Below are positions 22,683-28,600 of a stretch of DNA of 64,000 bases, one piece after another; the stretch's first letter is position 1, and the number at the start of each line of letters is the position of its first letter. Location: sequence record CP128686.1, one strand, 5' to 3'. Position numbers: made by a program. Source of the DNA: a plasmid.

Positions 22683-25600
22683 TTAAGCCTGAGCAAAATA
22701 AATACGTGGCTAGCGACAGAATTCCAGTGGCAGGCCGTACTTCTGCTGTATGGAGTGCCCATTCCAGATAACGTGGCCATTTACCAGCGTCATATCAACC
22801 GCACCGCCTGACAAAATCCGGCCTTCAAAGGGAGACCATCCGCATTTGTATGCCACATCCTCCCGGATTATCTGTTGATGACTGAACGGATCGATAACCA
22901 CCAGGTCCGCCCAATAGCCTTCCCTGATATAGCCGCGATCTTTGAGCTGGAAGCGCTCGGCTACAGCATGGCTGGTCTTTCTCACCACCATTTCCGGGGT
23001 AAAAATCCCCCTGCTGCACATATCCAGCAGTGCAGGAAGAGCATGCTGCACCAGCGGTAAGCCGGAAGGCGCAGCAAAATAGTCACTCTGCTTTTCCTCC
23101 AGTAAATGCGGCGCATGGTCAGTTGCGATAACGTCGATAATGCCTTCATTAACGCCTTTCCAGAGGGCTTCCTGATGAAACGAGGTTTTTACGGATGGGT
23201 TACATTTGAGCTTATGCCCCAGCGTTTCATAATCGTCATAATTAAAAAACAGGTGATGAACGCAGGCTTCAGCCGTGATGGTTTTCTGGCGCAGCGCCTC
23301 CAGCGTGGGGGCTGCATCAAAGAGAACAAGTTCGTCTGCGGTGGTAATGTGCAGAACATGTAATCGGGTACGATGTTTTTTCGCCAGAGAGACGGCCTGG
23401 CGGGAGGATGTCAGGCAGGCGTCCACAGAACGAATAGCGGCATGCTCGCCAGGAGGAATAGCATCCCCAAAACGAGCCCGCCATATCGCCTCATTTTGCT
23501 TTATTGTCGGGGTATGCTCGCAATGTGTTGCCACAAGACAAGGGGCATTAGCGAAAATACTTTCCAGCACCTGTTCATCGTCCACCAGCATATTCCCGGT
23601 AGAAGCCCCCATAAAGACCTTCACCCCACAGGCTTGCGAAGCCGTAAGCGCTTTCAGTTCGTCAAGGTTATCGTTCGTCGCGCCGAAGTAAAAACTGTGG
23701 TTCGCCAGCGAAGAACGCGAGGCACGCTGAAATTTCTCACGCAGCGCCTGACGGGTTGTCGTGGGTGGCGTAACGTTCGGCATTTCCATAAAACTGGTAA
23801 TGCCTCCCATTACTGCGGCAGCGGATTCAGTGGCAATGGTTCCCTTATGCGTCAGACCGGGTTCGCGGAAATGAACCTGATCATCAATCATACCGGGGAT
23901 CACCCATTTCCCTCGCACATCAATAACCAGCCATTCCGGTCGGGAGGGAATAAACGAGGCAATTTTCTGGATCCGTCCCTTATCAATGAGGATGTCGGCC
24001 TGATAGCGCATGTCCTCACTGATTATTAATGCATTGGTCAGTAATAAAGGCTTCATGACATCCCGCCCCCGATACTGTTGCGCTCCAGTATGGATGAGAT
24101 AAACGCGCCGATTAAATAACGGTTTGCCTCTGCTCGCTTTGCAAAGGGTTGCAATCCCGGCGTTTCAGTGCACGCTGCGACGTCGGAACCTGAAGAATAC
24201 AACCAGGATTCAAATGACGAATCAAAATGGTTAAAGATGATGCCATCCTCACATTCACAGCCATCAACCCGCTCTTTTTCCATGACAGGGAAAAAGCGTT
24301 CAAGCTCATCACGTAATGCTACGCTAAAATGGCCTGGACGGGCAGTATGTTCAAAGGTGTAGAGATACGCCTGCTGGCGAAGAATATCCTCGTGACAACA
24401 GAGCACACCGTGTCTGGCTGCGTTTTTCAGAAGCGCTTCATAATTAAGCAGTACTTTTCCTTCAACTGAAGGTTCGACCTCTGCCCCATTGGTAAAGCCG
24501 CGATTTGGGTTCTGTCCAGTACTGTTGAGCCGACAGCCAGCACTCAGGCCAGACAGGTTCACAAGCGGTAAAAAACTCACAGCTACGTTATCAAACAATT
24601 CAGGGGAGCCTTCGCGCAGAAAATCCAGCATCCCCCAGCATCCCGCGGGTTCTTCTCCATGAAACCCTGCCGCAATCAGAATATGCGGAACGTCAGCCCC
24701 CTGATTGACGGACTGATACAGCGATATGTTGCCCTCTCCAGGACACCCCAGAACAATTTCATACAGCCCCCATCGACTGGACTGTTCCCTGAATGCCTTT
24801 TCAAAAAAAGCAATATCGTTACTTTGGGTATCATCCTTCTTCACTGGCCAGATATGACAACGGTTCTCGCGCAGGGACGAACTGCCTCCATGTTGATTAA
24901 TCAAGGCGCACCTCCGGCGGTCGGCAACACATCTCAATGCAGTCAGCTGCTTCGTTGAGTAATAGTGTTCCCATACATTTCCCCGTACGATCGCGTACGG
25001 TGACACGCGCCGCATTTTCCTCCGCATCGCCAATAATCAGGAGGAAAGGAATGCGGGCCAGCGTCTGCTCCCGGATTTTGTATCCAATTTTTTCATTACG
25101 AAGATCGGTCTCACAGCGAAGTCCTTTCCGGCGAAGTGCCTTCAGAACCTGCTCCGCGTATCGATGTTGTTTATCAGTAATCGTCATGACCACGGCCTGA
25201 ACCGGCGACAGCCAGGCGGGCAGTTTACCAGCGTAGTGTTCAAGAAGAATACCGGTAAAACGCTCAAGAGAGCCGAAGAGCGCCCTGTGTAACATCACCG
25301 GGCGTTTTGTCGAACCATCCTCGGCAATGTAGCCAATATCGAATCGATCAGGCAGATTCATATCTACCTGTAGCGTCCCGCACTGCCAGTCACGACCGAT
25401 CGCGTCGCGCAACACAAACTCCAGTTTAGGGCCATAGAAAGCCCCTTCACCGGGATTTACCGACCATTGTAATCCCTGAGCTTCCAGAGAGGCTGAAAGC
25501 GCGTTTTCCAGCCGATCCCAGTCGGTGTCACTTCCCATGCGTTTTTCAGGACGGGTGGATAACTTGATTTCGACCTCTTCAAATCCAAACTGCTTATAAA

Positions 25601-28600
25601 TATCAAGCACCAGATGAAGGATACTTTTACACTCCCCCTCAAGCTGTTCCAGCGTGCACGGGTCCAACGCTTCTTCGTCAAAAAGCGTGATGATATTGAG
25701 CGTGCCACTTTTCTGCACTGCCTCGATCAGATCGATATATTGGCCATCGATTTCAGCATACACGGCGTTTTTCGCGACGGAAGAATCGATACTTTCCGCG
25801 ACGTTCTGCAACGTGGTCCCTTTTCTGACGAGCTTCAGAGAGCCATCAGGAAGAGTAAAGGTGAGAGGTTCTGACTCTGTTATAAGCGCTTCTGACATTT
25901 TCGTATCCCGACATAGCTCAGTGATTAACAGCAACCATGTTGCATTAACCCACAAATTAACGCAACCTTGTTGCATTAAAAGCGTCACTAGGGAGTGCCT
26001 GAATATGTTAAGGGAAAGCATGGAAATGTTATTAAATGGTAAAGATAATCTTTGCCATTTAAATACGTCTCACGCTAAGGCATACAATTTACAGTATGAT
26101 ATAACGTATAACTGATAACTAATAACTAACTACGATTCTGTCAGATGGAGAAAATGTTTCAACTTTTGCTCGCCTTGAGAACGGTGTTAAGCGCCATCGC
26201 AAAAGACTGAACATATCTGGATAGACATTATCAAATGAAAAACAAAAGGTTACACACCCCCCTCCTGCCAGCGGAATGACAAAGAACATGGTGGGATAGC
26301 GAATACAGACGGAAGAGGTAATATAAAATGAAAAAGCGCATTGCCTGCCTGCTTTCATTCCTGCTTTCATTGTATACCTGTACCGCACTCGCCAGGCATC
26401 AACAACTAATGCACAATGTATACGATACGCAAGAAAGCCAGAGCAAAGTTAACGAAATCCTGTCCGCCGTCTCTTTTCACGGGAATGAACTTAGCTATGG
26501 CGAACGTATCGCTGAGATATCTTCCCGTTTCCTCGGAACGCCTTATCAGGCGCATACACTTATTGGATCATCTTTGATGCAAGAGAGGCTGGTCACTAAC
26601 CCCAGTACCGTGGATTGTTTTACTTTTATTGATTATGTTCGCTCCATGGCGCACGCCAGTAGCTGGCAAACTTATGTATCTGAACTTGTTAAGACCCGTT
26701 ATACAAACGGGATGATTGATTTTACTGGCAGAAAACATTTTTTCACGGACTGGGCGGTCACATCTCCGCGAAATGCACAAGATGTTACTCAGGACATCAG
26801 CCCGTATACTATTACTGTCAACAAACGGCTAAACCAAAAGAATAAAAGACAAGAATATGTTAAGGGTCTCGGCATTATCTCACGCCGGATAAGCTATATA
26901 CCGGCTTCTGCAATAGATAAAGAGGTAATAAATAAACTGAAAACAGGTGATTATGTGGGTATTTATTCAACAAAAAGAGGACTGGATGTTTCACATGTTG
27001 GGATCATTATCAAAGACCACAATAACATCTGGTTCAGAAATGCATCGTCATTAGCGAAAAACAGAAAGGTAGTTGACTCACCTTTTATTAGATACATGGC
27101 TACAAAACCGGGTATTGTAGTTTTACGAGAGAAAACAGATCAATACCCCTGAACAGTAGAATAGTGTGTCAGGCAATAGCGCCTTTACCCACTCCCTCAA
27201 AGGCATGGACTTCTATTTTCGCTGCGGGTAAACCGTGCTCAATTGATTGCCTGATAAATAAAGCCAGTGACTCAACCGTGGTATCACACGGCAGAATATC
27301 TACTACCTCAGAACAAAGCATGATTTCAAAGTATCCCTGAGAACTTCGCCAGGAAGAACATGTCAGCCCCTTATGCCAGTATGTAACGGCACGCGGTGAA
27401 AGTGTTGTCACTGTAACGACATCTTCCCGGCTTAACAGATAAGCGTTATTCCATCGCGTTGCCCACTCCTGTTCCCACATATGGCTTCGCTCACCATCCA
27501 CAAAAATTCTGATCGCAGAGCGATGCCCATGCGCTATTCTCTGGCAATTTCCGCGGTGTTTTTTCAGTCCATGCGAGTAATGATAACTGTCACCACTAAT
27601 ACTTTCCGGCCGTAACGTTATCGTTATGTCTTTTACTCCCTGCGGCAAACACGCCAGTAAATGTTTTTCTATTTGGGATTCAAGGCAACGGGAAGTAATA
27701 TTATCTGCCTGGACCAGCCAGAAACTCTCCTGCGGCCCGGAAATAAAACACTGGGTCTCCCCATTCTTACGCAGCATGGCGACTTCCGTCGTAGTCCCCG
27801 CATGACTAACAATAATATGACTATTTTGTTCCGGCACAATCAGGACATGATCGGCCAGTTTATCAATTTCATGTTTGATACTTTTTTTTGCATGTGAGAA
27901 ATCCATTACCATTGATTCAGCATTCAGATCCCCTTCAAGAATAATATCAACGATAAGGCTATCGCCAATCAGTCCGGCCTCCGCATCAAGGAAACTAAAA
28001 TCCATGACCGTCAGATCATTAATAAAAAGTTTCACCGCTACCTCTTTAGTAAAACAGAAAAGCCTCCTCCGCAAAAGGATTGATGAGGCAAGTATCATTT
28101 TGCTACATTAATAACAAATCGTTAATAATACGGTGTTATGTTAACGACACCAGCCGAGCCATACTCAGAATTCATTTCGCAACAGCTGATAACCTTCCAC
28201 CAGTTTGACATTAGTGCTGGCGACTTCTTCTGAAAATTGTAAAGAAGCGGGATCCACTTTCGAATAACTTTTAAGATCGGAATCTGGCCCCACGCGTTCC
28301 GTTGATGGAATATAGGTGTTCTCAGGCAAGGTAACGCCATCCACAACTGCATTATAGCGAATAACACAACCCGTCTGAATATGACAGTTAAACAACACAC
28401 TGTTGAATCCAATAAATACCCGCTCGTCAACCTGACAGGGGCCATGCACTATTGCACGGTGGGCAATAGATGTTCCGCTTCCTATCGTCACTGGCGCGCC
28501 GCTTTTTGAGTGAATAACCACTCCGTCCTGAATATTAGAGTGGGAATGGATAATGATAGGATCCATATCCCCGTCTGCATTTAGCTCGTCAGCACGGATA

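What the first reader, a model, noticed from the sequence alone, without database searches (positions are those of the whole stretch)
24897..25898. Mini-ThrRS: TGS domain fused directly to the motif-3 half of the catalytic core plus the anticodon-binding domain
The protein (about 334 aa) aligns to ThrRS residues about 1-60 (TGS) and then jumps to KLSTRPEKRMGSD... through the C-terminal anticodon-binding domain. The N2 editing domain, class II motifs 1 and 2, and two of the three zinc ligands are absent. It is first gene of a Zur-box-fronted operon. Zinc-limitation-induced ThrRS paralogues exist (e.g. cyanobacterial T2), but such a truncated architecture would not be expected to aminoacylate. 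It may be an in-frame deletion derivative in a decaying island, or a regulatory/tRNA-binding or heterodimerising subunit.
Basis: partly seen in the sequence, partly recalled or inferred. Interest (0 to 1): 0.75.

Follow-up and report, generated by a model that had tools for sequence, protein, structure and literature searches.

The report
Internally deleted thrS2 gene remnant
The "mini threonyl-tRNA synthetase" on this Klebsiella virulence plasmid is real, but it is a recent in-frame 951-bp deletion of a normal full-length zinc-island ThrRS paralogue, one of many independent ways this gene has been broken, and not a new kind of protein.

Summary
Window 25898..24897 (-) encodes a 333-aa protein whose residues 1-80 are a TGS domain and whose residues 81-333 match E. 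coli ThrRS 388-630. The N2 domain, motifs 1 and 2, and two of the three Zn ligands are missing.

The window is the zinc-limitation island of a pLVPK-type K. pneumoniae virulence plasmid. An intact 650-aa thrS2 sits at the same place on plasmid pBio30. The window gene is that gene minus codons 81-397, a clean 951-bp in-frame deletion.

Plasmid pTK421_2 carries an allele that differs at 2 of 759 nt in the C-terminal half and still has motifs 1 and 2, so the deletion is very recent.

No protein with this junction exists outside this plasmid lineage in 1.84 billion representatives, 5.8 billion clusters or 185,579 species genomes.

Related islands carry at least six other independent thrS2 lesions (three 1-bp deletions, two other deletions, one stop plus IS). 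In three K. pneumoniae chromosomal loci and one more distant relative the neighbouring genes are intact.

Best reading: a non-catalytic gene remnant carried along on a successful plasmid. The in-frame deletion may simply keep the overlapping downstream genes translated. No canonical Zur box precedes it. A different conserved palindrome does. Interest is low.

The parts
24897..25898 (-). thrS' CDS: 333 codons plus stop. It is an internally deleted allele of the island's thrS2 gene. RefSeq names it WP_011251272.1 'threonine--tRNA ligase'. Other records call it 'TGS domain-containing protein' or 'aminoacyl--tRNA ligase-related protein'.
25659..25898 (-). Codons 1-80: TGS (N1) domain, equal to ThrRS2 residues 1-80 and E. 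coli ThrRS about 4-69.
   Evidence: It is 96.6% nt identical to K. pneumoniae subsp. ozaenae chromosomal thrS2.
25658..25659 (-). Deletion junction (…GAC CCG | TGC ACG…, D79 P80 | C81 T82). 951 bp, codons 81-397 of the 650-codon parent, are missing here. No microhomology at the breakpoints.
25233..25658 (-). Codons 81-222: the remnant of the class II catalytic core (E. coli 388-529). It contains motif 3 and H204 (E. coli H511), the only Zn ligand left.
24936..25199 (-). Codons 234-321: complete anticodon-binding domain (HGTP_anticodon).
24053..24904 (-). M14 metallocarboxypeptidase-like gene. Its TTG start overlaps the thrS' stop by 8 nt. It is followed by pyrC2 (22710-24056, 4-nt overlap) and hemB2 (21624-22646).
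25927..25978 (-). Two copies of a palindrome (TAAYGCAAC-N3-GTTGCRTTA) in the leader, 30-80 nt upstream of the ATG. The same motif lies in the zur-like/COG0523 intergenic region (31433-31453). It is conserved at both places in all related islands.
26022..26130 (-). Degenerate Zur-like elements. One is a single perfect half-site, GAAATGTTAT (26022-26031, + strand). The other is an array of GTTAT repeats with core GTTATATCAT (about 26096-26130), which sits where intact islands have GTAATGTTATAACAT. Neither is a canonical Zur box.

Best explanation
The gene is a recently arisen internal in-frame deletion allele of thrS2. thrS2 is the full-length (650-aa) ThrRS paralogue of the Klebsiella zinc-limitation island. 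The deletion removes 951 bp, codons 81-397.

The deletion takes out the N2 domain, the linker, motif 1 (dimer interface), Zn ligands C344 and H395, and motif 2 (ATP and acceptor-end binding). The product therefore cannot aminoacylate or edit.

The allele is fixed in the pLVPK-type virulence-plasmid lineage because that plasmid is successful, not because the mini-protein is selected. thrS2 is dispensable, or even costly, in Klebsiella and has been inactivated many times independently.

Because the deletion is in frame, ribosomes still reach the stop codon that overlaps the M14 start. Expression of M14-pyrC2-hemB2 need not suffer. That may be why this lesion was tolerated.

Shown: descent from a full-length gene, the exact breakpoints, the loss of catalytic elements, the recency, the absence of a family, and the repeated independent lesions. 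Inferred: lack of any function of the product, translational coupling, and cost of the parent enzyme.
For: 1. Same locus, intact parent. pBio30 (NZ_CP093857) carries a 1953-bp thrS, WP_021575194, between the same neighbours. Alignment gives 1-80 = 1-80 and 81-333 = 398-650 at 90% identity.

2. Nucleotide-level breakpoints are clean against L083, L086 and L091.

3. pTK421_2 (L092) matches window 25658-24122 at 99.74%, with 2 nt differences in the 759-nt C-half. It continues upstream into the motif 1 and motif 2 region that the window lacks. The deletion therefore post-dates less than 0.3% divergence.

4. dN/dS between the window and pBio30 alleles is 0.067 for the C-half, against 0.04-0.16 for neighbouring genes. 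Almost all of that divergence predates the deletion, so it reflects selection on the full-length ancestor.

5. No single-stretch match across the junction exists outside near-identical K. pneumoniae sequences, in 1.84e9 representatives, 5.8e9 clusters or 185,579 species genomes.

6. Other independent thrS2 lesions:
- G5 to G4 frameshift in K. pneumoniae chromosomes L086-L090;
- a different 1-bp deletion in subsp. ozaenae;
- a 1-bp deletion in a relative about 70% identical, L082;
- a stop codon plus an IS in L084;
- a deletion from the leader into the coding region in L085/P0010;
- a 5' deletion in pTK421_2;
- a truncation in P0287.
In L086, L087, L090 and L082 the neighbouring genes are intact.

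7. Further decay within the pLVPK lineage: fusions and truncations P0002-P0008, P0121, P0145. In this window cysS2 has a frameshift plus a nonsense codon, and zigA is split by an IS.

8. Of 579 plasmid records matching full-length thrS2, 2 hold the whole gene and one (pTK421_2) holds 78% of it. The rows listed for the rest cover 51% of the query in two pieces, which is the deletion allele.
Against: - The ORF is intact in about 571 of the Klebsiella/E. coli plasmid records at 99% identity or more and on at least 1000 contigs. It keeps its start codon, its leader and its operator-like palindromes. It is probably still transcribed and translated, so a product probably exists.
- The lineage is too young for the lack of stop codons, or a within-lineage dN/dS, to say anything either way.
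- AlphaFold models residues 81-330 with high confidence, although that mostly reflects homology.
- An intact anticodon-binding domain could in principle still bind tRNA(Thr).
- No expression or phenotype data were found.
Confidence: 0.85

Rival explanations
1. The mini-protein is a functional neo-protein. It would be induced under zinc limitation. Through its intact anticodon-binding domain, and perhaps its TGS domain, it would bind tRNA(Thr) or the host thrS mRNA operator. Alternatively it would dock on host ThrRS and so tune threonyl-tRNA synthesis or thrS expression when zinc is scarce.
For: - The ORF is in frame and uninterrupted in nearly all pLVPK-type plasmids.
- The leader and operator-like palindromes are retained and duplicated, as in intact alleles.
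- The anticodon-binding domain is complete.
- The C-terminal 250 residues are modelled confidently.
- A recombinant (P0423) carries the same deletion on a different C-terminal haplotype, so the allele has persisted long enough to recombine.
Against: - The deletion is younger than 0.3% sequence divergence.
- No same-architecture relatives exist anywhere.
- Sister islands lose thrS2 by frameshifts and other deletions that leave no such product.
- Motif 1, the class II dimer interface, is deleted. From established knowledge of E. coli ThrRS, both heterodimerisation and operator binding, which needs the dimer, are therefore unlikely.
- One deletion in three is in frame by chance.
- Half of the catalytic beta-sheet is missing, so stable folding of residues 81-222 is doubtful.
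Confidence: 0.08
2. The lesion was positively selected as a loss of function. The full-length ThrRS2 lacks both editing motifs and would mischarge Ser onto tRNA(Thr). Klebsiella would therefore benefit from killing its catalytic activity while keeping the reading frame, so that the translationally coupled M14-pyrC2-hemB2 genes stay expressed.
For: - Intact ThrRS2 has IRRGCLLLL in place of the HxxxH motif and TDGFNGPL in place of DxCRGPH (sequences). Rubio et al. [quoted passage not shown]
- thrS2 is specifically broken while its neighbours are intact in L086, L087, L090 and L082.
- At least seven different lesions were seen.
- There is an 8-nt stop/start overlap with M14.
Against: - Repeated loss is equally expected under simple relaxed selection, because the host has a housekeeping thrS.
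- Most of the other lesions are frameshifts, which would be polar if coupling mattered.
- An intact copy persists on pBio30.
- No misacylation or fitness data exist for this enzyme.
Confidence: 0.25
3. The truncation is an assembly or sequencing artefact.
For: None specific.
Against: The identical 333-aa product is found in more than 570 independently sequenced complete plasmids, including the pLVPK reference NC_005249, and on at least 1000 contigs from several sources.
Confidence: 0.01

Closest known systems
Full-length ThrRS2 of the Klebsiella zinc-limitation island (WP_021575194.1, plasmid pBio30 NZ_CP093857). The same gene, frameshifted, is on K. pneumoniae chromosomes.
   Same: - Same locus: between the DUF1460/Znu-like genes and M14-pyrC2-hemB2.
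- Same leader with GCAAC-N3-GTTGC palindromes.
- 90% amino-acid identity over all 333 residues.
   Different: The parent has 317 more residues (81-397): the N2 domain, the linker, motif 1, C344, motif 2 and H395. It is a complete class II synthetase core. The window gene is not.
Anabaena T2 (thrS2), a Zur-regulated ThrRS paralogue with impaired editing (Rubio et al. 2015, PMC4787780)
   Same: - A second ThrRS gene in a zinc-limitation regulon.
- A degenerate editing domain in the parent lineage.
- The Zn ligands are retained in the full-length Klebsiella parent, as Haas et al. 2009 noted for ThrRS paralogues.
   Different: T2 is a complete, active synthetase that keeps HxxxH and DxCRGPH and forms dimers. 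The window protein lacks motifs 1 and 2 and cannot be active. The Klebsiella parent has lost both editing motifs outright.
E. coli ThrRS (PDB 1QF6) and its engineered N-terminal truncation (catalytic core plus anticodon-binding domain, e.g. 1EVK/1EVL)
   Same: Residues 81-323 align without gaps to E. coli 388-630, and the TGS domain aligns to 4-69.
   Different: The engineered truncation removes N1 and N2 but keeps the whole catalytic core and remains active (established knowledge). Here the cut runs through the core itself.
Stand-alone aaRS-derived paralogues with new functions (HisZ, GluQ-RS/YadB, EpmA/PoxA, AlaX, ThrRS-ed)
   Same: They are fragments of an aaRS architecture encoded as separate proteins.
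   Different: Those are conserved families with many diverged members, each retaining a complete domain with an intact active or binding site. This one has no diverged members and contains half a domain.

Membership tests
Threonine--tRNA ligase (class IIa; NCBIfam TIGR00418 thrS equivalog) | Whole-protein score above the curated cut-off (383.65 bits) | tested here: not met
   296.5 bits. Only model positions 319-562 of 565 are matched.
Threonine--tRNA ligase (class IIa; NCBIfam TIGR00418 thrS equivalog) | Class II signature motifs 1, 2 and 3 in one catalytic core | tested here: not met
   Pfam tRNA-synt_2b matches only profile positions 71-179 of 179. Alignment to the intact parent shows residues 81-397, which hold motifs 1 and 2, are deleted. 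Motif 3 (HRALFGSLERF) is present.
Threonine--tRNA ligase (class IIa; NCBIfam TIGR00418 thrS equivalog) | Catalytic zinc triad (E. coli C334, H385, H511) | tested here: not met
   Only H204 (E. coli H511) remains. C344 and H395 of the parent lie in the deleted segment.
Threonine--tRNA ligase (class IIa; NCBIfam TIGR00418 thrS equivalog) | Anticodon-binding domain (HGTP_anticodon) and N-terminal TGS domain | tested here: met
   PF03129 at residues 234-321 (E 2.6e-18). PF02824 at residues 15-71 (E 8e-9).
Threonine--tRNA ligase (class IIa; NCBIfam TIGR00418 thrS equivalog) | N2 editing domain (tRNA_SAD, HxxxH and DxCRGPH) | tested here: not met
   No PF07973 hit. The domain lies inside the deletion. 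Even the intact parent lacks both motifs.
Zinc-limitation (Zur/COG0523) island paralogue of a Zn enzyme (Haas et al. 2009) | Located in a cluster with zur, COG0523, folE2, dksA2, cam, pyrC2, hemB2, cysS2 and hisI2 | tested here: met
   Annotation of the identical plasmid region. ORFs in the window. Haas et al. describe this pLVPK cluster.
Zinc-limitation (Zur/COG0523) island paralogue of a Zn enzyme (Haas et al. 2009) | Canonical Zur box (GAAATGTTATAWTATAACATTTC-like) upstream of the operon | tested here: not met
   The best match in 25899-26340 has 9 of 23 mismatches. The two pLVPK sites listed by Haas et al. (hisI2-yciC, dksA2-folE2-cam) are recovered at 39285 and 30163, but none is listed for thrS. 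A different conserved palindrome is present instead.
Zinc-limitation (Zur/COG0523) island paralogue of a Zn enzyme (Haas et al. 2009) | Induced by zinc depletion | not testable with these tools
   No expression data were found.
Gene remnant / deletion allele (pseudogene in the functional sense) | A closely related intact gene at the orthologous position, with definable breakpoints | tested here: met
Gene remnant / deletion allele (pseudogene in the functional sense) | Loss of residues indispensable for the family's activity | tested here: met
   Motif 1, motif 2 and two Zn ligands are deleted.
Gene remnant / deletion allele (pseudogene in the functional sense) | Relaxed selection after the lesion | tested here: inconclusive
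   The lineage is too young, with 2 differences in 759 nt from the pre-deletion allele. Scattered single-residue variants include G216D next to motif 3 (P0419), and several secondary truncations exist.
Natural stand-alone aaRS-like protein family | The same architecture conserved in diverged homologues from different taxa | tested here: not met
   Only near-identical K. pneumoniae plasmid sequences span the junction.

The most novel reading that the evidence does not exclude
The in-frame remnant is expressed from its retained zinc-responsive promoter. As a monomeric TGS plus anticodon-binding protein, it binds tRNA(Thr) or the host thrS leader. That would give hypervirulent Klebsiella a plasmid-borne modulator of threonyl-tRNA supply during host-imposed zinc starvation: a neo-functional protein caught at birth.
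Probability: 0.06. Interest if true: 0.6.

Novelty: new member of a known kind. Interest (0 to 1): 0.15.

Why it matters
Mostly as a correction. RefSeq names WP_011251272.1 'threonine--tRNA ligase' with GO terms for aminoacylation in hundreds of hypervirulent K. pneumoniae plasmids, but the protein cannot be a synthetase. Anyone counting zinc-sparing functions of the virulence plasmid should not count a ThrRS.

A secondary point may interest people who work on duplicated aaRSs and zinc homeostasis. thrS2 of this island family has lost both editing motifs and has been inactivated repeatedly and independently while its neighbours survive. This hints that an editing-dead ThrRS paralogue is dispensable or costly in Enterobacteriaceae.

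Tried and rejected
- **Remnants of the missing domain.** I searched the whole window by tblastn and blastn for the missing 317 residues, in any frame. Nothing scored better than E = 1.9 for protein or 0.05 for DNA. There is no frameshifted upstream segment.
- **Species-genome scan.** The scan of 185,579 species genomes returned only housekeeping-type ThrRS genes matching residues 64-331 at 65% identity or less. It helped only as a negative result.
- **AlphaFold model.** Mean pLDDT was 77. The TGS part had low confidence, partly because MAFFT aligned residues 65-80 to motif 2 of the homologues. The end of TGS (SGTLNIITLFDEEA) resembles the end of motif 2 ([18 protein letters not shown]) by chance. 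The model cannot speak to the stability of half a catalytic core, so I ran no fold search.
- **Rfam on the leader.** No match.
- **Sigma-70 and terminator scan.** Hits were at chance level.
- **Microhomology at the breakpoints.** None beyond scattered identities.
- **Leader palindromes as an RNA hairpin.** The fold z-score was only -2.3. The motif recurs in a non-transcribed divergent promoter region, so a DNA operator fits better.
- **Within-lineage dN/dS.** Not feasible, because there are too few substitutions.
- **Literature searches.** No description of this truncated protein was found.

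
Full report
**What is there.**
The minus-strand ORF 25898..24897 encodes 333 residues.

- Pfam finds a TGS domain (15-71), only the last 109 of 179 positions of the class II core model tRNA-synt_2b (81-222), and a complete HGTP_anticodon domain (234-321).
- The NCBIfam thrS equivalog is matched only from model position 319 onward, and the score is below its cut-off (296.5 against 383.65 bits).
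- Against E. coli ThrRS (1qf6), residues 14-79 align to 4-69 and residues 73-323 to 380-630 without gaps.

The N2 domain, motifs 1 and 2 and two Zn ligands are absent. H204 (E. coli H511) and motif 3 remain.

**Where it is.**
The region is 99.9-100% identical to more than 570 Klebsiella (and a few E. coli) plasmids, including the pLVPK reference. The exact protein is on at least 1000 contigs.

The surroundings are the zinc-limitation island that Haas et al. 2009 described on pLVPK: hemB2, pyrC2, an M14 peptidase, DUF1460, a PTPS-like gene, cam, folE2, dksA2, COG0523, two Fur-family repressors, cysS2, zigA and hisI2.

thrS' is the first of four co-directional genes. Its stop overlaps the M14 TTG start by 8 nt, and M14 overlaps pyrC2 by 4 nt.

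**Is it a family or a private deletion?**
Three searches designed to detect the junction found it only in near-identical K. pneumoniae plasmid sequences.

- A phmmer search of residues 1-161 against 1.84 billion representatives was run. Every other ThrRS matched in two stretches or in the C-terminal part only.
- A word-indexed search of residues 1-124 against 5.8 billion clusters gave the same result.
- A scan of 185,579 species genomes found only matches to residues 64-331, at 65% identity or less.

The second search also returned close relatives in which the TGS domain runs on into an N2 domain. These are P0127 from K. pneumoniae subsp. ozaenae (96% identical in TGS), P0133/P0287 and P0134.

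**The parent gene.**
Fetching those loci showed the same island on K. pneumoniae chromosomes (L083, L086-L090) and in a relative about 70% identical (L082). In each, a roughly 1.95-kb thrS2 sits at the same position.

On plasmid pBio30 the gene is intact. It is 1953 bp and 650 aa (WP_021575194), with KPMNCPG, the full motif 2 ([30 protein letters not shown]) and motif 3.

Pairwise alignment gives query 1-80 = 1-80 and query 81-333 = 398-650, at 90% identity. At nucleotide level the window reads …GACCCG|TGCACG…. The intact genes have …GACCCG ATTCGC… on the left and …ATCTTT TGCACG… on the right. This is a clean 951-bp, 317-codon in-frame deletion without microhomology.

No trace of the missing segment is found elsewhere in the window.

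**How old is the deletion?**
Plasmid pTK421_2 (L092) matches window 25658-24122 at 99.74%. That alignment starts exactly at the junction and has only 2 differences in the 759-nt C-half. L092 nevertheless continues upstream through motifs 1 and 2, and has instead lost the 5' end of the gene. The deletion therefore happened within less than 0.3% divergence.

The low dN/dS between the window and pBio30 alleles (0.067 for the C-half, against 0.04-0.16 for the neighbours) reflects purifying selection on the full-length ancestor. It says nothing about selection on the mini-protein.

**A gene that keeps being lost.**
Besides this deletion I found the following lesions:

- a G5 to G4 frameshift shared by at least 24 K. 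pneumoniae contigs;
- a different 1-bp deletion in subsp. ozaenae;
- a 1-bp deletion in L082;
- a nonsense codon plus an IS in L084;
- a deletion from the leader into the coding region in L085/P0010;
- the 5' deletion of pTK421_2;
- a truncated form, P0287.

In L086, L087, L090 and L082 all neighbouring island genes are intact. Within the pLVPK lineage there are further fusions and truncations: P0002-P0008, P0121 and P0145. In this window cysS2 carries a frameshift and a stop, and zigA is split by an IS5-family element.

Of 579 plasmid records matching full-length thrS2, two hold the whole gene and one (pTK421_2) holds 78% of it. The rows listed for the remainder cover 51% of the query in two pieces, as the deletion allele does.

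**Why might thrS2 be expendable?**
The intact ThrRS2 has IRRGCLLLL where ThrRS has HxxxH, and TDGFNGPL where it has DxCRGPH. Rubio et al. 2015 name these motifs as important for editing. They found that the Zur-regulated Anabaena T2 has impaired editing, and they argue that a misacylating ThrRS is selected against.

So the parent is probably an editing-dead synthetase that Klebsiella, with its housekeeping thrS, does not need. This step is inference.

**Mechanism, committed.**
The product cannot activate threonine or charge tRNA. Motif 2, motif 1 and two of the three Zn ligands are gone. This follows from established class II aaRS and ThrRS structure-function knowledge applied.

It also lacks the motif 1 dimer interface, so heterodimerisation with host ThrRS is unlikely.

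I consider it a non-functional remnant (confidence 0.85). The in-frame character may be tolerated or favoured because it preserves translation up to the overlapping M14 start.

A residual tRNA-binding or regulatory role of the TGS and anticodon-binding parts cannot be excluded, but nothing supports it (about 6-8%).

**Regulation.**
No canonical Zur box precedes thrS'. The best match has 9 of 23 mismatches. My scan recovers the two pLVPK Zur sites listed by Haas et al. (30163-30185 and 39285-39307), and their table has none for thrS.

Intact islands have GTAATGTTATAACAT at the position where the window has a degenerate GTTATACGTTATATCAT plus GTTAT repeats.

A different palindrome, TAATGCAAC-N3-GTTGCATTA, is better conserved. 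Two copies lie just upstream of thrS' and one lies in the zur-like/COG0523 intergenic region. It is present at both places in every related island, including those about 70% identical. It is probably an operator, possibly for the island's own 150-aa Fur-family repressor. This is not tested.

**Structure prediction.**
The AlphaFold model had a mean pLDDT of 77. Confidence was high for residues 81-330 and low for the TGS part. The alignment was partly misregistered at residues 65-80. The model adds nothing decisive.

**Verdict.**
The exciting interpretation is not supported. The finding is ordinary and of low interest, apart from an annotation error worth fixing and the side observations listed separately.

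Noticed in passing
window 25927-25947, 25958-25978 and 31433-31453; also L091 3531/10925/10956, L086 1202/9925/9956, L083 1245/9956, L082 6070/9526, L084 3305/7678/7710, L092 3033: A palindrome, TAATGCAAC-N3-GTTGCATTA, marks two promoter regions in every island examined: upstream of thrS2 and the zur-like/COG0523 divergent intergenic. This holds even for islands only about 70% identical. It is not the canonical Zur box. From memory it resembles the CytR half-site GTTGCATT. It may be the operator of the island's own 150-aa Fur-family repressor.
   Followed up: partly
L091 11001-12953 (pBio30), compared with L083, L086 and L082: The intact full-length ThrRS2 of this island family keeps the catalytic Zn ligands but has lost both editing motifs (HxxxH becomes RxxxL, DxCRGPH becomes DGFNGPL). 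It is predicted to be an editing-dead synthetase. The gene carries at least seven independent inactivating lesions across related islands, while its neighbours are intact in L086, L087, L090 and L082.
   Followed up: partly
window 32035-33416 (+): cysS2 (CysRS paralogue) is broken in this particular plasmid. A 1-bp gap near codon 20 shifts the frame, and there is a premature stop (…DDDFNTP*). The 460-aa gene is intact in plasmid pMR0819-ARMA (L001).
   Followed up: yes
window 36549-38831 (-), insertion 36705-37757: zigA (the COG0523 zinc metallochaperone) is split by a roughly 1.05-kb insertion. The insertion carries a 322-aa transposase-like ORF (36734-37702) that looks IS5/IS903-like.
   Followed up: partly
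window 25949-26431 against L091 8551-10916: Relative to the intact islands, the pLVPK island has also lost the Znu-like ABC transporter genes (ZnuA-like, ATPase, two permeases) that lie between DUF1460 and thrS2. This leaves DUF1460 with a different 5' end, divergent from thrS'.
   Followed up: partly
L092 (pTK421_2) 5760-7535: This plasmid has the complementary lesion. The PTPS-like gene's end is fused to thrS2 codon about 141, so TGS and part of N2 are lost but the whole catalytic core and anticodon-binding domain remain in frame. From an internal Met it could still encode an N-terminally truncated, potentially active ThrRS.
   Followed up: no
window 25898-24897; RefSeq WP_011251272.1: PGAP names the 333-aa remnant 'threonine--tRNA ligase', with GO terms for threonyl-tRNA aminoacylation, in hundreds of records. 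Other records use 'TGS domain-containing protein' or 'aminoacyl--tRNA ligase-related protein'. The first name is functionally wrong.
   Followed up: yes
P0423 and L085 (ENA contig k141_138947): There are mosaic alleles. P0423 has the pLVPK deletion joined to a pBio30-type C-terminal haplotype. L085 has the pLVPK-type upstream region (99.7%) joined to a diverged C-terminal haplotype (87.4% to the window; pBio30-like by eye in the alignment). This indicates recombination between plasmid and chromosomal copies of the island.
   Followed up: no
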